From: a phage | Reading direction: 5' to 3' (one strand) | DNA: 64,000 nucleotides | Sequence record: PZ445442.1 | Shown: one piece after another, positions 22,929-31,604 of the stretch | Position numbering within the stretch: position 1 is the first letter of the stretch | Layout: every line of letters begins with the position of its first letter | Notes under the pieces: model-generated | Seen by the model: only the letters and a program-made list of their open reading frames with translations | Database searches by the model: none | Told to the model about the DNA's origin: nothing | Made by a program: the position numbers and the translations under genes

Positions 22929-23017
22929 ATAAGCACCTTACTGAAATACAAGACACAGTGTTAAGGTTACTGACCAGCAAATAATTAACAGTGCCGTTGC
23001 AACCTTGGCAAGATTTA

Positions 23018-23305
23018 TCATAGTGCCTCTAAGATTTCATATCCTTCGGGTCGGAATACAAGCCACTCCGTGGCTCCGTTTGGTCGATACGCTTTATACA
23101 GAACAACCTGGTCTCGGCACATGCACATGGCTACATAGTTTTCATCCACACCTGCAGCCTGCATTGCATCTTCTTCTCCGGCAACTGCTTTGCTTACAAC
23201 TTCCTTGGTAGGCAAGTGTGCGATCAGCTCGTCACCATCATTAATTCCAAAATGGCTGAGTTCGCCGTTGGTATCTTTAATCTTAATCTTAACCAGATCT
23301 TTCAT
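23018..23305 (-). CDS. hypothetical protein
   Basis: 95-aa ORF, abuts neighbor. Confidence 0.5.
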   Translation of the reverse strand: MKDLVKIKIKDTNGELSHFGINDGDELIAHLPTKEVVSKAVAGEEDAMQAAGVDENYVAMCMCRDQVVLYKAYRPNGATEWLVFRPEGYEILEAL

Positions 23306-23634
23306 TAGTCTTCCCCCAGGTTCAAAGGTCCTAAGATTTCATATGCCAGATTAGAAGTTACAAGAGGGTCTTCTGCGTCTTTAGTATTATACCACCCGTG
23401 AATAACCAGAGTCCCACTTTGTTTCATGTCCAACTGGAACTCTTCTGCCGTTTCCTCATCCAGCTCCAAGATTTCCATAAGGTATTTGATGTTAGGGAGG
23501 TATGCAGCTGTTACAGTCCCCTCTACCAGACCTTCAGGCCAACCTACATCTGGATGACAAGTAGGAACCAGGTTGGTCAGCTTAATGGTGTACGCTTTTT
23601 CTGCACGAGCCTTCAGTAACGGGTCAATCTTCAT
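23305..23634 (-). CDS. hypothetical protein
   Basis: 109-aa ORF, abuts neighbor. Confidence 0.5.
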   Translation of the reverse strand: MKIDPLLKARAEKAYTIKLTNLVPTCHPDVGWPEGLVEGTVTAAYLPNIKYLMEILELDEETAEEFQLDMKQSGTLVIHGWYNTKDAEDPLVTSNLAYEILGPLNLGED

Positions 23635-23984
23635 TATTCGTCCTCCTCTTCGGTACCTGCTTCCAGTAATAAGTTAAGAATATCTTCTGCACAAGGCTCA
23701 TAGAACTCTTGGCCTTCATTATCGATGATTTTATAGTCATCTCCACGAATAATCAGGGGATCACTCTCAAAATTATCGAGACCTTTAACAACGACAACAC
23801 GATCGATTGCCATCATTGTAAGAACTTTATCGACATCTTCCTCTGCTACACCATACTGCAGCAGAATGTCTTTGGTAGGAGGAACAGCATCCACCACAAC
23901 ACCGTTACCAAAACCTTCCGGGAGTTTAGCTAAAATATCTTCCGGAACCACATTCACATCAAAACCAGTAATTTCTACTTTCAT
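23634..23984 (-). CDS. small acidic protein, paralog family B
   Basis: Starts MKVEITGF, acidic C-terminus; similar to 23985-24245 and 25409-25678. Confidence 0.5.
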   Translation of the reverse strand: MKVEITGFDVNVVPEDILAKLPEGFGNGVVVDAVPPTKDILLQYGVAEEDVDKVLTMMAIDRVVVVKGLDNFESDPLIIRGDDYKIIDNEGQEFYEPCAEDILNLLLEAGTEEEDE

Positions 23985-24245
23985 TTACAGCACCTCTTCG
24001 TCAACTACTTCATAAAAATGGCTTGGGATTGCAATAGCGTTCTCACCTTCACCCAAGAACACTGTCCCACTAACGATTAACATTAGAAGAACGTCTGCGA
24101 TACCTTCCTCGGGGACGTTGCCAAAACCTTTGATCAGCTCGTAGGTTGGAATATTTACCTCTAAGATGTCACCATCTTTAGAACGGAAATCAACACCGTC
24201 CTGAATCTCTGCCGTTTCAAGGTTTTTCAATTTAATCTTCATCAA
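23985..24245 (-). CDS. small acidic protein, paralog family B
   Basis: MKIKL N-terminus, C-terminal YEVVDEEVL; paralog of 25409-25678. Confidence 0.5.
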   Translation of the reverse strand: MMKIKLKNLETAEIQDGVDFRSKDGDILEVNIPTYELIKGFGNVPEEGIADVLLMLIVSGTVFLGEGENAIAIPSHFYEVVDEEVL

Positions 24246-24321
24246 TCGGTCTCCTGTCTTGTTAAGATGAAGGTATTATTTCACACAGGGTTGGCGTTGT
24301 CAACACCTGTGTGCAAGAAAA

Positions 24322-24717
24322 TTACTGAAACAGTGCAGATAAATTACCTTCTGGTGGGAACTTATCTGCCAAAAACGGTGTTAGCACAGTAGCCTTCTGA
24401 AGATCTGGGGTCCACTCGTTGTTCAGAACATCCCAGTAGTACGCAATATTGCTGTGTGGGTGCCGCATTACGAACTTTTTCCCTTCGTAGTCATCTGAAA
24501 CCTCTACAGAAGAAATAACAACAGAATCTTCAAGGGTTTCTTCATAGAAAGATCCACCTTCAAATTTCCAACGAGATGCAAGAGCCCCTGCCTTGAACGC
24601 TGCAGATAACGGACTGTCGGCAAGAACATACATTTCTTGCACTCTGTCGCTGCGATCTTTGCTTCTTACGTTGTATACAGTATCTGAACTATACTCAACA
24701 CGGTATAGGCTTACCAT
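24322..24717 (-). CDS. hypothetical protein, paralog family C
   Basis: Shares FVMRHPHSNIAYYWDVLNNEWTP with FVIVHPDSRVKHYWNARTKTWTP of 26524-26922. Confidence 0.5.
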   Translation of the reverse strand: MVSLYRVEYSSDTVYNVRSKDRSDRVQEMYVLADSPLSAAFKAGALASRWKFEGGSFYEETLEDSVVISSVEVSDDYEGKKFVMRHPHSNIAYYWDVLNNEWTPDLQKATVLTPFLADKFPPEGNLSALFQ

Positions 24718-25076
24718 TACCGCACCTCCTCAATAACTTCCACATCTGAACCTACCACAAATGCAAAAGGGCAGGTTTCATGAAAGACATCCGGATCGCC
24801 GCCAAGCTTGCTAACAATCTCTCCACCACTAATAAACACAAGCTCACCGATATTCATCAAATTGCTGAAATAGTACCCATAATGATTAAAGAATGCAGCA
24901 GGGTCAGGTAGACTGGTAGCCTCAAGCACTACATCGGTTAAGGTTACTTTCTTATCATAACCTCTCGCCTTTTGAGATGCAAGATCTGCAGAATCCTCAG
25001 GCGACCGGAGATGCACAGGGATTGTTTCACCAATAAAGCGTACTTTCATATTATCACCCAACAACCATAGCTTCAA
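24717..25076 (-). CDS. small acidic protein, paralog family A-like
   Basis: Internal MKVRFIG start likely; C-terminal VEVIEEV. Confidence 0.45.
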   Translation of the reverse strand: MKLWLLGDNMKVRFIGETIPVHLRSPEDSADLASQKARGYDKKVTLTDVVLEATSLPDPAAFFNHYGYYFSNLMNIGELVFISGGEIVSKLGGDPDVFHETCPFAFVVGSDVEVIEEVR

Positions 25077-25317
25077 AAGGAGTCATGAACGAATAAACGG
25101 CATCATCATCAGCTTCAGGGAATGCTCCCAAAGACTTCATGTCTGAGCCCTTGACAAATACAAGGTTTTGATCAAAAGCTTCTTGGGGATCAATCCGATA
25201 CATATTACGTAGAATATCGCTTACCTCCTCATCAAGAGGTGAGTATGCTGTGCACGTTTTTCCGATCAAGCTTTGAGAATCAGGGTATCCACCTGAAGTT
25301 TTAAAATAAACAATCAT
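25054..25317 (-). CDS. hypothetical small protein
   Basis: 87-aa ORF. Confidence 0.45.
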   Translation of the reverse strand: MIVYFKTSGGYPDSQSLIGKTCTAYSPLDEEVSDILRNMYRIDPQEAFDQNLVFVKGSDMKSLGAFPEADDDAVYSFMTPFEAMVVG

Positions 25318-25408
25318 ATAGTATCACCTCTGGCAAGAGATTGGGATTCCTTTCCCACAAATAATTACAAACCTTCCTTATCGAGGAAGTATGCTAATCT
25401 AAGCAGGA

Positions 25409-25678
25409 TTATTCCTCTACAATCTCATACACATCAGGAGTTACAATCAACTCTTCTCCGTTACCAGGTGCAACAAACACCACCAAACCTTCAGGTGTGT
25501 GCTTTTTAGCCATCTCGATAACATCTTCCCGCAGAGCTGGCTCCATCAGATCAAAACCTTCACCCAGGGCATCACGAACCACCTTCATATAGTCCACTGG
25601 TTGTGCTTCAACAATCATGCCTTCAACCAGACCACAATTTTTGTCTGCCAGCTCAGTTTTGAATAATTTAATTTTCAT
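25409..25678 (-). CDS. small acidic protein, paralog family B
   Basis: MKIKLFKTELA... YEIVEE. Confidence 0.5.
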   Translation of the reverse strand: MKIKLFKTELADKNCGLVEGMIVEAQPVDYMKVVRDALGEGFDLMEPALREDVIEMAKKHTPEGLVVFVAPGNGEELIVTPDVYEIVEE

Positions 25679-25815
25679 TTGGAGGTCTCCTCAATTATTT
25701 GATATTAATAGCCGTAACCTAACACATTAACTACAACTGCGATTGCAAACATAATTTCAAAGCATGCAATCTCTACATTTGGGACTAATTTCTTAATCAC
25801 ACCCATTGTAGCACC

Positions 25816-26133
25816 TCATTCTCCAAAGTCAATCTTTACTTTGCCTTTCCCCTTACCTTTCTTTCCACCGCATTTAGCCAGCTGACGTGCTGCAACATCT
25901 ACCATACGGTCAGTTGCCTCGTAAGCATCACTGCCTTTAGCCTTGGCAATAACTTCTTTTCCAGAATTGTCAAAAATGAACGCCATAACTTCCTGGTGAT
26001 CATTTTCAACTTTTACACTCACACGTGCATAGTTGGCAGAGGGGTGCAAACGCTCCAGCTTAGACATTTTGTGGGAAATGAAAGACACCATACCTTCAGT
26101 GATTTCTACGTTGCCAGTGATTTCAATTTGCAT
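25816..26133 (-). CDS. hpf: ribosome hibernation promoting factor / RaiA-family homolog
   Basis: Aligns by eye along its length to E. coli HPF (I.G.NVEIT...KLE...AxI...G...DxYxA...RQLxK); K/G-rich C-terminal tail. Confidence 0.7.
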   Translation of the reverse strand: MQIEITGNVEITEGMVSFISHKMSKLERLHPSANYARVSVKVENDHQEVMAFIFDNSGKEVIAKAKGSDAYEATDRMVDVAARQLAKCGGKKGKGKGKVKIDFGE

Positions 26134-26215
26134 AACGTGTTCCTTTTAAAGAAGAGGGAACCAAACCCTCTTTGAAAACAATGATACTAAATCTGAAGCG
26201 TTGTGTCAACAGTTT

Positions 26216-26506
26216 TTACAGCTTGTTGTCGATAGTTCTTAAAATATCTACAGCAAGATCTGCCATTTTTCGAACATACTCTGCAAACTCAACAGGATCC
26301 TTGATCGAAGAATTCACAGGGTCGTACCCTAGAGCGTTCAAAATGGCTGCAGCATCTACAACCTTCTCATCATTTGCGAAGATCTCTCCGTCAAACTTGT
26401 AGGTCCATTTTGAGTCAACCTTAGCAGAGCAGGGTTTGTCCATGCTTGTTACACCATCGTCTTTAAACTCTCCTGCGTTATCAATATTTAGAATTAAATC
26501 CATCAT
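26216..26506 (-). CDS. hypothetical protein
   Basis: 96-aa ORF. Confidence 0.45.
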   Translation of the reverse strand: MMDLILNIDNAGEFKDDGVTSMDKPCSAKVDSKWTYKFDGEIFANDEKVVDAAAILNALGYDPVNSSIKDPVEFAEYVRKMADLAVDILRTIDNKL

Positions 26507-26523
26507 AGTGACACCTCACTGTT

Positions 26524-26922
26524 TCAGTTTAGCTTTTCTTCAACAACCCCATAGCTCGGGGCAGAGTCAAGAGCTTTTTGGTTTAAAAGTGGTGTAGCAG
26601 AATCTGCAAACGGTGTCCAAGTTTTTGTTCTGGCATTCCAGTAATGCTTCACTCTGGAATCTGGATGCACTATAACAAAAACTTTTTCACTTGTCAACAC
26701 ATTAATTTCTTCTACACCCTTGCTGATAATTTCTCCGTCATAGCCTCCAGTCTGGTATCCTTCGTACCAGGTTCTTGCATAGGCATAGCCAGCCTGCCAG
26801 CATGCAGCCTCCTCCGAGGTGGAGACTACGTAGAAGTCTTTCTCAAATTCCGGAATACGCCCTTGCTTTACGCTCCAAGCTCCGCGAATTTTCATTGTAA
26901 CTTTGAATAGTTTATTTTTCAC
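26524..26922 (-). CDS. hypothetical protein, paralog family C
   Basis: Paralog of 24322-24717. Confidence 0.5.
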   Translation of the reverse strand: MKNKLFKVTMKIRGAWSVKQGRIPEFEKDFYVVSTSEEAACWQAGYAYARTWYEGYQTGGYDGEIISKGVEEINVLTSEKVFVIVHPDSRVKHYWNARTKTWTPFADSATPLLNQKALDSAPSYGVVEEKLN

Positions 26923-26934
26923 AACGGTTACCCA

Positions 26935-27219
26935 TCACAGCTCTACAATATCTGCATCTGACCCTGCCCCAAAGGCATAATAGGACTCTTCCCCGAAATA
27001 ATATTCCGGTGCACCAGCAGCGATCAGGTCTGATCCCAAAATAAACACCACGTTGTGGCCTACATAGCTGTGATGTTGCCGCACAGGATCATCCCACGGC
27101 AACCCTTCAAAGTATACCGCAGGAACGACCTTTCCTTTCAGGAAGGATTGCCCCAAGTAGACGTTAGAATCAAGAATTTTAACCTTCATGATCGTCCTCC
27201 ACGATCTCCACATCCTCAC
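26935..27219 (-). CDS. small protein, paralog family A (likely starts at internal MKVKILD, about 27189)
   Basis: MKVKILDSN...DLIAAGA...DADIVEL. Confidence 0.5.
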   Translation of the reverse strand: MRMWRSWRTIMKVKILDSNVYLGQSFLKGKVVPAVYFEGLPWDDPVRQHHSYVGHNVVFILGSDLIAAGAPEYYFGEESYYAFGAGSDADIVEL

Positions 27220-27406
27220 CTAGGGCAAAGTTGTAGGTCCACTGACTGTCAAAGCAGTCCTGAGATGCACCAGCGGCAATAAGATCTGCCCCTTTTATTT
27301 TTAAAAGGTCAGGGTAATCTTCGTTAGGTACAGCAGTAAACACTTTCCCTACTAAAGGCTCCTGACCAATATAGAAGCTTGAATCTAAAACTTTAACTTT
27401 CATCAA
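27179..27406 (-). CDS. small protein, paralog family A
   Basis: MMKVKVLDSS...GADLIAAGASQD...EDVEIVEDD. Confidence 0.5.
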   Translation of the reverse strand: MMKVKVLDSSFYIGQEPLVGKVFTAVPNEDYPDLLKIKGADLIAAGASQDCFDSQWTYNFALGEDVEIVEDDHEG

Positions 27407-27690
27407 CGGTCTCCATCAGGTGGTTGTGGGACGTAAACACTGTTACGAATATCGTCCGCAGTATAGTAATAAGTGTCTCCAACCCTATCTCTGGCTGCAA
27501 TGTACTCTGCTATACCAATAAGTGCCATTGATTTGGTGGCGTATCTTCCCAACTCGTTAGCTCCCCAGTAGAATTTAGACCAGTAGGGAATAAGACCGAA
27601 CAAATATACCTTTTGACGAACTTCCCAGTAAGTGCCTTTTCCGACAAGTTTAAACTCGACTTCACTACTGTTAATCTTTTTCATTATCAA
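27403..27690 (-). CDS. hypothetical protein
   Basis: 95-aa ORF. Confidence 0.45.
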   Translation of the reverse strand: MIMKKINSSEVEFKLVGKGTYWEVRQKVYLFGLIPYWSKFYWGANELGRYATKSMALIGIAEYIAARDRVGDTYYYTADDIRNSVYVPQPPDGDR

Positions 27691-27983
27691 TCTCCCTCTA
27701 CCGTGGTCGGATTGTCAGTAAGAAATTGAGCATTGGCTGGAGGCACGCCTGACATTTTCCACACAACCATAAGTTTGTAACCCGGCACCCTGTTAAGTGC
27801 AGATCGAGTAGAGTTTGTGCACGTATACTTTCGCTTTCCAAACCCGTTCTCCATCATAATCCAGTACCCAGTATCTTTGTCACCAGGTATCGGTAGACCA
27901 CCTTCATCAACCCACTGAATGGACCACGGCACGATGGCTACAGCTTTATATTTAAACTTTTTAAACCACTCAAAAAGTTTCAT
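27687..27983 (-). CDS. hypothetical protein
   Basis: 98-aa ORF. Confidence 0.45.
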   Translation of the reverse strand: MKLFEWFKKFKYKAVAIVPWSIQWVDEGGLPIPGDKDTGYWIMMENGFGKRKYTCTNSTRSALNRVPGYKLMVVWKMSGVPPANAQFLTDNPTTVEGD

Positions 27984-27986
27984 AAT

Positions 27987-28076
27987 TCAGCCTCGCATAG
28001 ACATAATCACTATAAACAGGCAAACAATGAATCCGAATGCCACGCCACCCATAAACGTTAATATTGATGCAATCAT
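27987..28076 (-). CDS. 29-aa hydrophobic peptide (MIASILTFMGGVAFGFIVCLFIVIMSMRG), copy 1 of tandem duplication
   Basis: Encoded on - strand within 96-bp tandem unit; fits exactly between flanking ORFs; GAGG 10 nt upstream. Confidence 0.4.
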   Translation of the reverse strand: MIASILTFMGGVAFGFIVCLFIVIMSMRG

Positions 28077-28188
28077 AGTCAATCAGCCTCGCATAGACAT
28101 AATCACTATAAACAGGCAAACAATGAATCCGAATGCCACGCCACCCATAAACGTTAATATTGATGCAATCATAGTCAATCAGCCTCGC
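27988..28188. repeat. perfect tandem direct repeat, 96-bp unit, about 2.1 copies
   Basis: Unit CAGCCTCGCATAGACATAATCACTATAAACAGGCAAACAATGAATCCGAATGCCACGCCACCCATAAACGTTAATATTGATGCAATCATAGTCAAT repeats at 27988 and 28084. Confidence 0.9.
28083..28172 (-). CDS. 29-aa hydrophobic peptide, copy 2 (identical)
   Basis: Second 96-bp unit. Confidence 0.4.
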   Translation of the reverse strand: MIASILTFMGGVAFGFIVCLFIVIMSMRG

Positions 28189-28360
28189 TTGGCAACTCTT
28201 CTACCTTAACATGCCGAAAAGTGTTACCGTAATGGTTGATCCATGACATCAGCTCGCTTTCTTGCTCTTCCTCTGGGATGAACTCTCGAATGCTGACAAG
28301 TTTTAAGAAAACCCAATCACAATCTGCACCCATTCTACCAGACAGGCAATAGTGCTTCAT
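28175..28360 (-). CDS. hypothetical protein
   Basis: 61-aa ORF. Confidence 0.4.
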   Translation of the reverse strand: MKHYCLSGRMGADCDWVFLKLVSIREFIPEEEQESELMSWINHYGNTFRHVKVEELPSEAD

Positions 28361-28378
28361 AAAACCCTCCCGCCTGGT

Positions 28379-28573
28379 TTAGAATATTGCTTCTTCCATT
28401 GCGCCTGAGAGCAACAAAGAGGTGATCTGGCTAACATTCATCTCAGACTCTACTTCCTCCCCTTTGAAAGGTTCGCGGCAGAATAGGACTGTTTCAGGAC
28501 TTTTACTTCGAACAATATAATACAAATCATTCAATGTGTTGTAGTAATAAGTGTTAAAATGTAAGTTTTTCAT
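28379..28573 (-). CDS. hypothetical protein
   Basis: 64-aa ORF. Confidence 0.4.
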   Translation of the reverse strand: MKNLHFNTYYYNTLNDLYYIVRSKSPETVLFCREPFKGEEVESEMNVSQITSLLLSGAMEEAIF

Positions 28574-28857
28574 TTTCTAGTCCTCTTCTTAGATTTTTGT
28601 GCAGAAACGCTTTCTGCAATACGAGACAGGCGTTCTTCTGAAGCTTTACCTATCCCAGGTTTCTTGAGCGGGTTATCTTTATGACCGCAATCCAATTGGA
28701 TATTGGATACCTCCCCAACCTTGTAAGTCAATTCTAGCAAAAGGTTGTCGTCCTTGTCAAATGTTCTTACGATAAATTTTTTATCGTTCTCCTGAACTTC
28801 ATATCTGGTACCTGCAGTATACAACATGGTACCATCAGCATAGGATATCCAGATCAT
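28570..28857 (-). CDS. hypothetical protein
   Basis: 95-aa ORF. Confidence 0.45.
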   Translation of the reverse strand: MIWISYADGTMLYTAGTRYEVQENDKKFIVRTFDKDDNLLLELTYKVGEVSNIQLDCGHKDNPLKKPGIGKASEERLSRIAESVSAQKSKKRTRK

Positions 28858-29201
28858 TGAGCCTCCTTCTGCTGCAACAGCATTAACTCTTTGTTAGAGA
28901 TCTTTACTGCTGTTTTTATTGTTCCATCTTTACGGAACCACGACCAGAACTCTACAGTGTCCCCACTATCAAGCAAAGCATACCCGTGGTAGAAGTCTTT
29001 GTCCTTAGACAGTTTCTCATCTATGTCTGCATCGACACATTCATGATCCATAGCATTTTGCCTGAATGCATCGGTTATGCCAATGCACGCCTTGCTCTCA
29101 AGACTGGTATATCCGATATCTTTTAATTCAGTTTCCCAAGTCCAGTACCCTATAAAAGCTAAAACAGCTACCCACAGTAATAACGTTTTAATCTTTGGCA
29201 T
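28854..29201 (-). CDS. putative membrane-anchored/exported protein
   Basis: N-terminal signal-anchor LLLWVAVLAFIGYWTW. Confidence 0.45.
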   Translation of the reverse strand: MPKIKTLLLWVAVLAFIGYWTWETELKDIGYTSLESKACIGITDAFRQNAMDHECVDADIDEKLSKDKDFYHGYALLDSGDTVEFWSWFRKDGTIKTAVKISNKELMLLQQKEAQ

Positions 29202-29263
29202 TCTCTCTACCTCTTTCTTAGTTTATTTCACTATGGCACATCCTTTGTGCCATATCTCAACTA

Positions 29264-29734
29264 CTACTTAAATAGTAGTTCAAAATAGTGCAAAATTAAC
29301 AGAAGTTGAACTACACCTAGTGCAACGGCAAGTATGTTAATCTTAGAATCGAAAAACTTCTTAACTTTTACTCTAAAAGGTTCCTTAATGTCCTTTACGA
29401 TCCTATCTATAGATGACCTCATATCTCTGATTACCATCCTGAACATTAAAGACGGATGCTCCCCCATCTCTGTAACGGAATCGAAAACATACTCTCTTCG
29501 GTCATAAGGGCCGCCAGCTCTGCGTATTAACCTCTCCACAGAGACCTCGAACGTCACACCTGTAACGTAATCATCTATAACAAGTCGTGACGGGTCTTTA
29601 CCTTTACTATCAAGAGGTATCAAAGTTATCTTTCCAGATTTTGTTAAAATTTCCCCTTTTTCAAGCAAGGTGTACCAATGCTCTCTGCCAAGACTGTTGA
29701 GGCACGTTTTTACATATTTAACAAACATCGTCAC
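29264..29734 (-). CDS. hypothetical protein with C-terminal TM helix
   Basis: 156-aa ORF, C-terminal ILAVALGVVQLLLILHYF. Confidence 0.45.
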   Translation of the reverse strand: MTMFVKYVKTCLNSLGREHWYTLLEKGEILTKSGKITLIPLDSKGKDPSRLVIDDYVTGVTFEVSVERLIRRAGGPYDRREYVFDSVTEMGEHPSLMFRMVIRDMRSSIDRIVKDIKEPFRVKVKKFFDSKINILAVALGVVQLLLILHYFELLFK

Positions 29735-29934
29735 CCCTCATCGCACGTCTGATATAACCACTCTATAAAATCTTGATACCATTCTCCCTCTGAGCGCTCC
29801 GTAGGCCAATAATCTTCACCCTCTCGTGCATTAAAATCTGAGTATTCAACTTTCCACTCCTTTACCAGCTCGTGGAGAAGGTTTTCAGCCTGCTCTAAAG
29901 ATTTATTTTTTACCATTGCTGTCTCCTTTTTCAA
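29731..29934 (-). CDS. hypothetical protein
   Basis: 67-aa ORF. Confidence 0.4.
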   Translation of the reverse strand: MKKETAMVKNKSLEQAENLLHELVKEWKVEYSDFNAREGEDYWPTERSEGEWYQDFIEWLYQTCDEG

Positions 29935-30135
29935 GATAGTTATACATCAGAACTGCACCACCTAAGATGGCTACCAGTAACAATACCCCAGATAGCATCT
30001 CAATAAACATGGCTTGAAACACTGGAAGGCCTCCCTAAATTAACGCACCATTTTAAATACATGCTCTTTTCCCATAAAGGTGCCTGGCTAAGATCTGCGT
30101 AGAACGCAATCTCTTTAAGAACAGTATAAACAGTT

Positions 30136-30372
30136 TTAGGTGCGGTCTCCATCCCTACCCTCCTTTTTCTCCTTACGGATATTCTTGTAGTAATCAACCA
30201 GGCACATTATCACGATGAAGATAACAACAGGCCAAAAAGGTGCAGCAGTGATGATGGTGATAAAATCATCAAACTTCACCCTTCGTCTGGACACGATGCA
30301 TACACCTGTCAAGAATACCGCTGTTATAACGGACATTACCAGGTAACCTATTAGCACAACATTTATACTCAT
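30136..30372 (-). CDS. putative membrane protein (two TM helices)
   Basis: 78-aa ORF, two hydrophobic segments. Confidence 0.45.
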   Translation of the reverse strand: MSINVVLIGYLVMSVITAVFLTGVCIVSRRRVKFDDFITIITAAPFWPVVIFIVIMCLVDYYKNIRKEKKEGRDGDRT

Positions 30373-30402
30373 TGGTCCTCCCTTTGTAGGTTAAATTGTA
30401 TA

Positions 30403-30936
30403 CTACGGATGGTTGCTGATGGTGTTAAGAAAATTATCCCGTTCTTTCTCAGAGTTTTCACGAGTGTAGCTGAAAAACATGTCTAGAATAACCTTATTGA
30501 TATATTCCAGCTCCTCTGTGTTCAGGTACTTAGCAGGATCTGCAATGACATCCCAAGTCTCATACAGACCGCACTCATGATACCCCCAACGCTGCTCAAT
30601 TGTCAAGCTGAGTGGCAAATCTTTACCGTCACAAACAACCTTCCATCTACAAATGCTGGTATCTGGGCGTATCTGTGCACGGTATATCTGTACAAAATCC
30701 AATTTGAATTTGAGGTACTCGTCATACAATTTAAGCACAAAGCTCTCGATTTGTGGAGACACTTTTGCAGCAAACTGTGCGTATTTGTACTTGCACTGGA
30801 TGATCTTTCTGCGTTTTGCAGTTAAATTTTTTGCCGCCAGTTGTTCTTCAGTGTATCTCCACCTACGATCAACAAACGCAACAGGGTCTTTGTCCCCATA
30901 GAGGTCTTCCCAGTTAATCAGAAGCATACCTGTCAC
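30403..30936 (-). CDS. hypothetical protein
   Basis: 177-aa ORF. Confidence 0.5.
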   Translation of the reverse strand: MTGMLLINWEDLYGDKDPVAFVDRRWRYTEEQLAAKNLTAKRRKIIQCKYKYAQFAAKVSPQIESFVLKLYDEYLKFKLDFVQIYRAQIRPDTSICRWKVVCDGKDLPLSLTIEQRWGYHECGLYETWDVIADPAKYLNTEELEYINKVILDMFFSYTRENSEKERDNFLNTISNHP

Positions 30937-31166
30937 TCCTCCACAACTTCAAGGCCTTTACCGCCTCGCTCTGGCAGATTACTTAAAGATAGGTAATACA
31001 TATAATCAGGAGAGATCCTGCCAGACTCTGCACCTGCAGCTAGTAAATCCTTCCCTTTAACCAGGACAACATTCTCGTTTGCAGATAGCCGTTTTGCTTC
31101 CACAATTTTACCAACACAGTCAACCAAGGAAGGGTACCCTAAATCTGTAAGAAATTTAACTTTCAT
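30933..31166 (-). CDS. small protein, paralog family A
   Basis: MKVKFLTDLG...GKDLLAAGAESG...LEVVEE. Confidence 0.5.
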   Translation of the reverse strand: MKVKFLTDLGYPSLVDCVGKIVEAKRLSANENVVLVKGKDLLAAGAESGRISPDYMYYLSLSNLPERGGKGLEVVEE

Positions 31167-31205
31167 GCTACCTCCTGCTTCTACCGTCCCTGGTAAGATA
31201 AATTA

Positions 31206-31604
31206 TTACTGAACAGAGCGCGGGGCTGGGAAGGATAACTCTTCTAAAGAGAAGATTTCATTTCCTACCACCCAAGTTGCTGGATCATCTGGGTTGACGG
31301 GATAGATAATCATCACCTCGTCAGTGTTACATACCCGCTTTTTACCTGTGGAGTCATCAGCAACCAGCATGCGCGGTTCTTCAGAAATGCACAGGTAGCC
31401 TCCTCGGCCCACTGTTCCTTCCACAGGGTCTTGCCCTTTGATCACGATGATTATCTTCTCTCCTGAGGCGATATTACCTTGCACACTCACCGTTTGACCA
31501 ACCTTGGATGTGCCAATCTTAGTGACTTCGAACATTACATCCCGAATTACTGTTGCATAATCGCCAGACACTTTCTTACCTTCTTTAGTGATCTCAATCT
31601 TCAT
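31206..31604 (-). CDS. hypothetical protein
   Basis: 132-aa ORF. Confidence 0.5.
   Translation of the reverse strand: MKIEITKEGKKVSGDYATVIRDVMFEVTKIGTSKVGQTVSVQGNIASGEKIIIVIKGQDPVEGTVGRGGYLCISEEPRMLVADDSTGKKRVCNTDEVMIIYPVNPDDPATWVVGNEIFSLEELSFPAPRSVQ

What the first reader, a model, noticed from the sequence alone, without database searches (positions are those of the whole stretch)
23305..31166. Interleaved tandem expansions of three small-protein paralog families
Family A (30933-31166, 27179-27406, 26935-27219, probably 24717-25076) shares MKVK(I/V/F)LD ... DL(I/L)AAGA ... E(I/V)VE. Family B (23985-24245, 25409-25678, 23634-23984) shares MKIKL/MKVEI starts and acidic YE(V/I)V(D/E)EE ends. 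Family C (24322-24717, 26524-26922) shares F(V)HP...YW...WTP. Repeated local duplication of small acidic proteins is typical of rapidly evolving host-interaction or anti-defence loci; none shows a recognisable known domain.
Basis: seen in the sequence. Interest (0 to 1): 0.65.

Follow-up and report, generated by a model that had tools for sequence, protein, structure and literature searches.

The report
Old small-protein paralogue families, rV5-like phage
A block of probable early genes in a known E. coli phage (EmilHeitz, an rV5 relative) really does contain several families of duplicated small proteins of unknown function, but the copies are old, conserved and partly dispensable rather than fast-evolving, so this is a useful catalogue entry rather than a new kind of system.

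Summary
The window is Escherichia phage EmilHeitz (Bas49, Vequintavirus), 100% identical apart from one 96-bp duplication. The reported families are largely real, with corrected membership. Family A has five members, not four. It has a confidently modelled SH3-like beta-barrel and belongs to a wider phage family (PHROG 5009 group; no Pfam, NCBIfam or PDB relative) that is usually single-copy elsewhere. Family C is a solid pair. Family B fails as the claimed trio but becomes significant as a very divergent five-member family once 23018-23305 and 23305-23634 are added. A fourth pair (26216-26506 / 30403-30936) was missed. In all, 14 of 28 annotated genes fall into four families, and the gene order A-A-C occurs twice. 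The "rapidly evolving anti-defence" reading is not supported. dN/dS is 0.03-0.20, the tandem A pair is intact in 116 of 118 isolate records, and no anti-defence homology was found. Phage Bas59 is a viable natural deletion of two A genes and one C gene, and it plates like its full-array siblings on 11 defence systems. Rare in-frame deletion chimeras do occur. Function remains unknown; the best guess is small non-virion protein-binding modules made early in infection.

The parts
30933..31166 (-). Family A member A1 (77 aa; rV5 ORF127). Sits in the position of the only A gene in the distant gut lineage L009.
   Evidence: phrog_5009 E 8e-36; 49% identical to the L009 gene that follows the 31206 homologue
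27179..27403 (-). Family A member A2 (74 aa; rV5 ORF140). Upstream gene of the tandem pair; this is the protein that was modelled.
   Evidence: phrog_5009 E 1e-38; AlphaFold2 pLDDT 91.4, SH3-like barrel
26935..27189 (-). Family A member A3 (84 aa; rV5 ORF141). Downstream gene of the tandem pair; overlaps A2 by 11 nt.
   Evidence: 42% identical to A2, E 8e-15, z 21.7; ATG at 27189 fits the family N-terminus MKVKIL
25054..25317 (-). Family A member A4 (87 aa; rV5 ORF147).
   Evidence: phrog_5009 E 1.2e-4; non-circular profile E 9e-9; recovered by iterative search
24717..25049 (-). Family A member A5 (110 aa from the ATG at 25049; rV5 ORF148). Carries two inserts.
   Evidence: blastp E 2e-4 and 1e-3 to A2 and A3; non-circular profile E 4e-7
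26524..26922 (-). Family C member C1 (132 aa from the GTG at 26922; rV5 ORF142). Follows the A2-A3 pair.
   Evidence: 28% identical to C2 over 119 aa, E 6e-10, z 16.6; phrog_7379. The paralogue alignment begins at residue 4-5, which favours the long start.
24322..24717 (-). Family C member C2 (131 aa; rV5 ORF149). Follows the A4-A5 pair.
   Evidence: phrog_7379 E 2e-66; shares FV..HP...YW....WTP with C1
25409..25678 (-). Family B (regrouped) member (89 aa; rV5 ORF146).
   Evidence: leave-one-out E 2.5e-3; top hit (E 3e-4) of a profile built from three of the other four B genes
23985..24242 (-). Family B member (85 aa; rV5 ORF150). The weakest member.
   Evidence: leave-one-out E 0.48; pairwise z 4.4 to 23018 and 3.9 to 23634
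23634..23984 (-). Family B member (116 aa; rV5 ORF151). Hub of the family; has an extra acidic C-terminal tail.
   Evidence: leave-one-out E 6.6e-3; blastp E 0.004 to 23018 and 0.019 to 23305
23305..23634 (-). Family B member (109 aa; rV5 ORF152).
   Evidence: leave-one-out E 9.6e-3; alignment A5
23018..23305 (-). Family B member (95 aa; rV5 ORF153/154). Not named; lies outside the reported range.
   Evidence: leave-one-out E 1.9e-4; z 6.5 to 23634
30403..30936 (-). Pair D member D1 (annotated 'putative glycosidase'; rV5 ORF128). Its C-terminal 70 aa resemble D2.
   Evidence: blastp E 6e-5, z 9.2-9.3; phrog_13467, unknown function
26216..26506 (-). Pair D member D2 (96 aa; rV5 ORF143).
   Evidence: phrog_12029, unknown function
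24275..24303 (-). Sigma70-like promoter (TTGACA-17-AATAAT, extended -10) upstream of the four tandem B genes.
   Evidence: coincides with promoter P150 annotated in the rV5 record
26181..26209 (-). Sigma70-like promoter (TTGACA-17-TATCAT) upstream of the HPF gene, inside the array.
   Evidence: coincides with rV5 promoter P144

Best explanation
SHOWN: this is the small-gene accessory block of a Vequintavirus (rV5-like) genome, and 14 of its 28 annotated genes fall into four old paralogue families. Family A (5 copies) is an SH3-like beta-barrel domain of about 70 aa that occurs widely, usually once per genome, in unrelated phages. Families B (5 copies), C (2) and D (2) were found only in the rV5 lineage, plus one C-like gene in the distant gut lineage. 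All A, B and C copies are under purifying selection, and the one locus counted (the tandem A pair) is intact in nearly all isolates. INFERRED: the array grew from a state with one A and one C gene, by duplication of a three-gene A-A-C module plus tandem duplications, long enough ago that copies share only 25-42% identity. Short homologies occasionally collapse neighbouring genes into in-frame chimeras. MOST LIKELY MECHANISM (inferred, about 40%): the proteins are soluble, mostly acidic, non-virion proteins made from host sigma70-type promoters early in infection. Each paralogue acts as a small protein-binding module with its own host or phage partner, and the conserved strand3-helix motif G.(D/E)L(I/L)..GA of family A is the probable contact face. 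Their benefit is conditional, because at least A2, A3 and C1 are dispensable on E. coli K-12.
Confidence: 0.55

Rival explanations
1. One reading: a fast-turnover arms-race locus of anti-defence proteins, possibly acidic DNA mimics that block restriction or other defences.
For: The proteins are small and acidic and sit in an accessory block with sigma70-like promoters. The core A genes are among the most divergent alleles in the region (79-86% aa identity, dS 0.75-1.4). Copy-number variants exist in metagenomes. These phages carry 15-17 EcoKI sites yet plate at EOP 0.06-0.8 on EcoKI.
Against: dN/dS is 0.03-0.20 and the tandem pair is intact in 116 of 118 records. The A fold is an all-beta barrel, with no Pfam, NCBIfam or PDB relative. 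Full-array phages Bas57 and Bas58 are still strongly restricted by EcoRI (about 1e-4) and give no plaques on EcoRV, EcoCFT_II or Fun/Z. Bas59, which lacks A2, A3 and C1, has the same profile. The BASEL authors attribute weak type I restriction to rare sites in general.
Confidence: 0.15
2. Serial horizontal acquisition: the A copies (and perhaps the B copies) were captured separately from other phages, not duplicated in place.
For: The A family is widespread and patchy. The nearest neighbours of A1, A3 and A5 are subtype-specific homologues from other lineages (P0026/P0016, P0018, P0017), and the five copies never cluster.
Against: P0017-like and P0018-like proteins sit six locus tags apart on one 136.8-kb contig, so they come from a related phage with a similar arrangement, not from foreign donors. 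A-A-C occurs twice. A2 and A3 are adjacent and are each other's closest copy within the genome. The tree has too few columns to decide.
Confidence: 0.2
3. RNA- or ribosome-directed role: the SH3/KOW-like A barrels act on translation or transcription together with the neighbouring phage ribosome hibernation factor.
For: Structural neighbours include Spt5 KOW domains and ribosomal proteins of the L24/L21e/L14e type. An HPF/RaiA gene (25816-26133, PF02482) lies inside the array.
Against: Four of five A proteins are acidic (pI 4.05-4.66; A1 is 5.42), which is unfavourable for direct nucleic-acid binding. The structural scores are generic for the fold. In other phages the domain occurs without any noted HPF neighbour (contexts not examined in detail).
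Confidence: 0.1
4. The similarity is chance or compositional (shared MK-I/V-K-L starts and acidic ends), and there are no real families.
For: Unrelated neighbours also start MKIEI/MQIEI (31206, 20324, HPF). The three named B pairs are marginal.
Against: Excluded for A, C and D. For B, both the random null and the selection-matched null give no leave-one-out score below E 0.1, against four scores below 0.01 for the B set.
Confidence: 0.03

Closest known systems
PHROG families phrog_5009, phrog_13367, phrog_8603 and phrog_7345 (phage proteins of unknown function)
   Same: A1-A3 match phrog_5009 end to end. 40 of 42 members of the wider alignment hit phrog_5009 and 25 hit phrog_13367.
   Different: PHROGs puts A4 and A5 in separate families (13920, 13661) and gives no function, fold or paralogy. 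The five-copy array is not described in the papers I could search, including the rV5 genome paper.
SH3-like small beta-barrels: PsaE, Spt5/NusG KOW domains, eukaryotic SH3, ribosomal L24/L21e
Ocr (T7 gp0.3) and ArdA DNA-mimic anti-restriction proteins
   Same: Small, acidic, probably early phage proteins.
   Different: No Pfam match of any kind. Family A is modelled as an all-beta barrel, whereas Ocr and ArdA are elongated, largely helical dimers (my own knowledge). Full-array phages remain strongly restricted by type II and III systems.
phrog_7379 (family C) and single-genus PHROGs 12359, 11868, 12155, 12794, 12457 (family B members)
   Same: C1 and C2 both match phrog_7379 end to end. Each B gene matches its own PHROG end to end.
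   Different: PHROGs does not link the five B genes to each other; that link is new here and weak. At BLAST level C occurs only in Vequintavirus, plus a copy about 26% identical to C2 in the gut lineage.
Host-takeover blocks of many small early genes in large lytic phages, such as the Bacillus phage SPO1 host-takeover module and T4 early accessory genes (my own knowledge, not tested here)
   Same: Dense runs of short genes behind host-type promoters, mostly dispensable in the laboratory and mostly of unknown function.
   Different: Here half of the genes belong to four paralogue families, and one of those families is shared with many unrelated phages.

Membership tests
PHROG phrog_5009 group (family A) | Significant full-length match to the family HMM | tested here: met
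   A1, A2, A3: E 8e-36, 1e-38, 7e-32. A4: E 1.2e-4. A5 is linked only through the wider profile (E 4e-7).
PHROG phrog_7379 (family C) | Significant full-length match to the family HMM | tested here: met
   C2 E 2e-66 and C1 E 4e-74, both over 131 of 131 profile positions
SH3-like beta-barrel fold class | Five-stranded small barrel with structural superposition on known members | tested here: inconclusive
KOW / ribosomal L24-type domains | KOW sequence motif and binding to nucleic acid or the ribosome | not tested
   No Pfam KOW hit at E up to 1. Binding cannot be tested with these tools. The acidic pI argues against it.
Ocr / ArdA DNA mimics | Sequence membership in the Ocr or ArdA Pfam families | tested here: not met
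   No Pfam family at E up to 1 for any of the ten A, B and C proteins scanned
Ocr / ArdA DNA mimics | Elongated helical dimer displaying DNA-like rows of carboxylates | tested here: not met
   The family A model is a compact all-beta barrel with one short helix. B and C were not modelled usably.
Ocr / ArdA DNA mimics | Protection of the phage from type I restriction | tested here: inconclusive
   Published EOP on EcoKI and EcoCFT_I is 0.06-1 despite 15 EcoKI sites in Bas59, and is unchanged in the Bas59 deletion. The authors attribute weak type I restriction to rare sites generally. The retained copies remain untested.
Rapidly evolving arms-race gene family | Elevated dN/dS and frequent copy-number change among close relatives | tested here: not met
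   dN/dS 0.03-0.20. Tandem pair intact in 116 of 118 records. Only rare collapses were seen: three metagenome contigs, L012 and Bas59.
Virion structural proteins | Detection in purified virions | tested here: not met
   No peptide fragment from A, B or C in the rV5 virion MS table. The text lists gp52, 53, 60, 61, 64 and 133 only. Small proteins can escape MS.

The most novel reading that the evidence does not exclude
Families A and B are one superfamily: the same SH3-like barrel, with B (like A4 and A5) carrying a helical insert between strands 2 and 3. Ten of the 28 genes in this block would then descend from one widespread phage domain and form a diversified set of binders. These might assemble as hetero-oligomers, as the natural two- and three-domain fusions in other phages hint, and might be aimed at different host targets.
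Probability: 0.2. Interest if true: 0.55.

Novelty: new member of a known kind. Interest (0 to 1): 0.3.

Why it matters
The genome is a well-used reference phage of the BASEL collection, and rV5-like phages are common therapy and biocontrol candidates, yet half of this 8-kb block was annotated only as unrelated hypothetical proteins. The work here reduces 14 genes to four families and gives one of them a confident fold and a wide phage distribution with no Pfam entry. It also identifies a ready-made natural deletion mutant (Bas59) and natural chimeras. Together these turn an unannotated stretch into a small set of testable questions. It also corrects the tempting inference that duplicated small acidic phage proteins must be fast-evolving anti-defence genes.

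Tried and rejected
1. Family B as the claimed trio: rejected by leave-one-out.
2. A link between families A and B: the broad A profile does not detect any B gene (best E 2.5), and hhalign gives 27% probability over the N-terminal 29 columns only. Left open.
3. A shared tail motif between C and D, suggested by two chimeras joining at 'AD.A': rejected, since the tails are not similar (z 0.4-2.1) and the joins are nucleotide microhomologies.
4. Function from fused domains: ten longer family members have no Pfam domain.
5. Family C structure: pLDDT 52, unusable.
6. AFDB50 fold search: library unavailable.
One locus, L009, was then recovered from IMG/VR with P0087.
8. Genome-wide fitness data for the Vequintavirus EdH4: not available; only capsid and rII genes were targeted.
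9. The 'sigma 54 modulation factor' label on 25409 orthologues: no basis (E 46 against the true HPF).
10. Monophyly of the five A copies: not resolvable with 70 columns.
Full report
IDENTITY AND CONTEXT. Window 23000-31500 matches Escherichia phage EmilHeitz (Bas49, MZ501062.1; Vequintavirus, the rV5-like phages) at 100% identity, and about 120 other records at 90-98%. All genes from about 20 to 58 kb lie on the minus strand. In the record, every gene in the reported range is 'hypothetical' except a ribosome hibernation factor (25816-26133) and a 'putative glycosidase' (30403-30936). Upstream neighbours are a methyltransferase, a ClpP-like protease and PhoH. Consensus sigma70-like promoters lie in minus-strand intergenic gaps. 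Two of them (26209-26181 and 24303-24275) coincide with promoters P144 and P150 annotated in rV5. The rV5 genome paper puts this block in the gene 82-163 transcription unit and never mentions paralogues or duplications.

CHECKING THE OBSERVATION. I compared 34 minus-strand ORFs all against all, with shuffled controls.

Family A is solid. 26935/27179 score z 21.7, 27179/30933 z 14.1, and 24717 against 26935 and 27179 z about 9. PHROGs already groups three of them in phrog_5009. A fifth member, 25054-25317, was missed. It hits phrog_5009 at E 1.2e-4. With a profile that excludes it, 24717 and their orthologues, it scores E 9e-9 and 24717 scores E 4e-7, while the best of 1700 shuffled decoys scores 0.14. 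Iterative searches seeded from 26935, 27179 or 30933 each recover all five and nothing else. No further member exists in the 64-kb window.

Family C (24322-24717 and 26524-26922) is a clear pair: E 6e-10, z 16.6, both in phrog_7379. The alignment favours the GTG start at 26922 over the annotated ATG.

Family B as claimed is not supported on its own. The pairwise z values are 3.4, 3.9 and 1.7, and leave-one-out ranks are 5, 86 and 39. The three genes do, however, belong to a real, very divergent family once 23018-23305 and 23305-23634 are added. Leave-one-out E-values are then 1.9e-4, 9.6e-3, 6.6e-3, 0.48 and 2.5e-3. In contrast, 1075 tests on random 5-sets of other small proteins from this block never went below 0.41, and 110 tests on sets chosen the same way as B (a hub plus its four best partners) never went below 0.13. 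The alignment shows an MK..IKL strand, (D/E/N)G.....A..P, an acidic helical stretch, a hydrophobic strand, and an invariant Tyr in a terminal YE(I/V)(I/V/L).

A fourth pair was missed. The C-terminal 70 residues of 30403-30936 resemble 26216-26506 (E 6e-5, z 9.3).

In transcription order the block reads A1 D1 [unrelated genes] A2 A3 C1 D2 HPF x B A4 A5 C2 B B B B. A-A-C occurs twice, which has P about 2.5e-4 under random order. In all, 14 of the 28 annotated genes fall into four families.

An exhaustive profile search of 1.84 billion representatives finds 55 clusters. They share the consensus MKVKLL..GGY.G...V.GKVV.A...I.G..L...GA....F.....Y.F..G.E.E.VE. They map to PHROGs 5009, 13367, 8603 and 7345, all of unknown function. 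There is no Pfam, NCBIfam or PDB sequence relative. In the phage collection, relatives of one such member occur in one place per genome in Krischvirus RB49-like phages, Iodobacter PhiPLPE, and Proteus, Salmonella and E. coli siphophages. A few metagenomic proteins carry two or three copies of the domain in one chain (P0022, P0035, P0064, P0065), with no known fused domain. The family C model failed (pLDDT 52), so no fold was assigned.

EVOLUTION.
- Distribution: at BLAST level A and C are confined to Vequintavirus. The syntenic 40 kb of a Seunavirus and a Mydovirus has neither.
- Polarity: a distant gut-metagenome lineage (L009, 136-kb contig, ClpP-like protein 45% identical) has exactly one A gene, in the position of A1 right after the 31206 homologue. 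It also has one C-like gene, and no B within 10 kb downstream.
- An intermediate lineage: subtype-specific homologues of A5 and A3 (P0082 and P0085, about 44% identical to the rV5 versions) sit six locus tags apart on one 136.8-kb contig in E. coli assemblies. So a second, divergent lineage carries a similar arrangement.
- Limits of the tree: a neighbour-joining analysis on 70 columns supports only those subtype pairs (100% and 97%) and never groups the five window copies. Duplication in place is therefore inferred from gene order and from the single-copy outgroup, not shown by the tree.
- Selection: dN/dS against the two most divergent Vequintavirus genomes is 0.03-0.20 for every A, B and C gene, similar to HPF (0.04) and the methyltransferase (0.04). 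A1-A3 are nevertheless among the most divergent alleles (79-86% identity, dS 0.75-1.4).
- Copy number: the tandem A2-A3 pair is intact in 116 of 118 isolate records, and the other two are fragments.

RARE COLLAPSES AND A NATURAL KNOCKOUT. Three independent in-frame deletion chimeras exist.
(i) In three metagenome contigs, one 70-aa hybrid gene replaces A2 and A3. The join lies inside the shared GC(C/T)GCTGGTGCA that encodes AAGA.
(ii) Contig L012 has lost window 26362-26596, fusing C1 to the tail of D2 with a 13-bp overlap. It also has an upstream frameshift.
(iii) The cultured BASEL phage EduardKellenberger (Bas59, 131.5 kb) has lost about 26610-30530, fusing D1 to the last 33 residues of C1 at GCAGAT(C/T)CTGCTA.
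The C and D tails are not significantly similar, so (ii) and (iii) are microhomology events.

A tblastn of all block proteins against the complete Bas59 genome finds no copy of A2, A3, the first 99 residues of C1, or nine other listed genes. Published raw plating data show that Bas59 behaves like the full-array siblings Bas57 and Bas58 on all 11 defence systems tested. EcoKI and EcoCFT_I give EOP about 0.06-1. EcoRI gives about 1e-4. EcoRV, EcoCFT_II and Fun/Z give no plaques. RexAB, PifA, Old and Tin give about 1. EcoPI varies among siblings whether or not the array is intact (array status).

INTERPRETATION. The duplications are real and partly lineage-specific, but the locus is not fast-evolving and nothing ties it to anti-defence. 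DNA mimicry is unlikely for family A, because it is a compact beta barrel and full-array phages are still heavily restricted by type II and III systems. The weak effect of type I systems despite 15 EcoKI sites is what an Ocr-like activity would produce. However, the BASEL authors see weak type I restriction for most phages, and the Bas59 deletion does not change it, so this is not evidence for such a role. The retained copies remain untested.

The proteins were not detected in rV5 virions. My best reading is that they are conserved, individually dispensable, soluble binding modules made early in infection, with partners still to be found. The natural multi-domain fusions hint that A domains work together. 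Function remains unknown, and that part of the explanation is inference.

NOVELTY. The genome and the PHROG groupings are public. New here are the fifth A member, the regrouped B family, the D pair, the repeated A-A-C module, the fold assignment, the wide single-copy distribution of the A domain, the selection and copy-number data, and the natural chimeras and knockout. This is a new, better-defined member of a known kind: paralogous accessory small-protein families in large lytic phages.

Noticed in passing
window 27987-28188: A perfect 96-bp tandem duplication (2.1 copies, 100% identical) that is absent from the deposited EmilHeitz record. That record and phage naswa have one copy; phage Aya has none. 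The unit is bounded by the 10-bp direct repeat TCAGCCTCGC, and on the minus strand it carries the whole mini-gene bas49_0162 (a 29-aa hydrophobic peptide). This is the only difference from MZ501062.1 found in window 23000-31500, and it shifts coordinates above about 28082 by +96.
   Followed up: partly
window 26216-26506 and 30403-30936: A fourth paralogue pair, not in the finding. The C-terminal 70 aa of the 'putative glycosidase' resemble the 96-aa protein (E 6e-5, z 9.3). Both fall in PHROGs of unknown function, and I did not verify the 'glycosidase' label.
   Followed up: partly
window ~26610-30530; locus L011 and L013-L015 (MZ501061.1): BASEL phage EduardKellenberger (Bas59) has a 3.9-kb in-frame deletion. 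Among other genes it removes the orthologues of rV5 gp129 (30136-30372), which the rV5 paper proposed as the holin, and of gp133 (29264-29734), reported there as a predominant virion protein. Neither gene is found elsewhere in the Bas59 genome, so both are dispensable for plaque formation on K-12.
   Followed up: yes
window 25409-25678: Several GenBank records label the orthologue of this gene 'sigma 54 modulation factor'. That name belongs to the true HPF/RaiA gene next door (25816-26133). There is no similarity between the two (E 46) and no Pfam hit, so it looks like a propagated mis-annotation.
   Followed up: yes
phage collection hits (MG0656xx records): Eighteen records named 'Campylobacter phage', with host given as Campylobacter jejuni, are about 96-97% identical to these E. 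coli rV5-like phages across the region. The host label looks doubtful.
   Followed up: no
L012:5855-6330 (Logan ERR11566688 contig, 120.6 kb): Besides the C1-D2 fusion, this assembly has a one-base frameshift in the N-terminal part of C1. The gene may be a pseudogene there, or it may be an assembly error.
   Followed up: partly
L010:8526-8796 (rV5 record DQ832317, ORF153/154): The rV5 orthologue of 23018-23305 is annotated as two overlapping short ORFs instead of one 95-aa gene. This suggests a frameshift or sequencing error in the original rV5 record.
   Followed up: no
proteins P0022, P0035, P0064, P0065 (metagenomic): The family A domain occurs two or three times in tandem within single polypeptides in other, unidentified phages, sometimes with an extra C-terminal region that has no Pfam match.
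   Followed up: partly
window 25816-26133: The phage-encoded ribosome hibernation factor (PF02482) sits in the middle of the paralogue array, behind its own strong sigma70-like promoter (26209-26181). It is under strong purifying selection (dN/dS 0.04-0.06 against the two divergent genomes).
   Followed up: no
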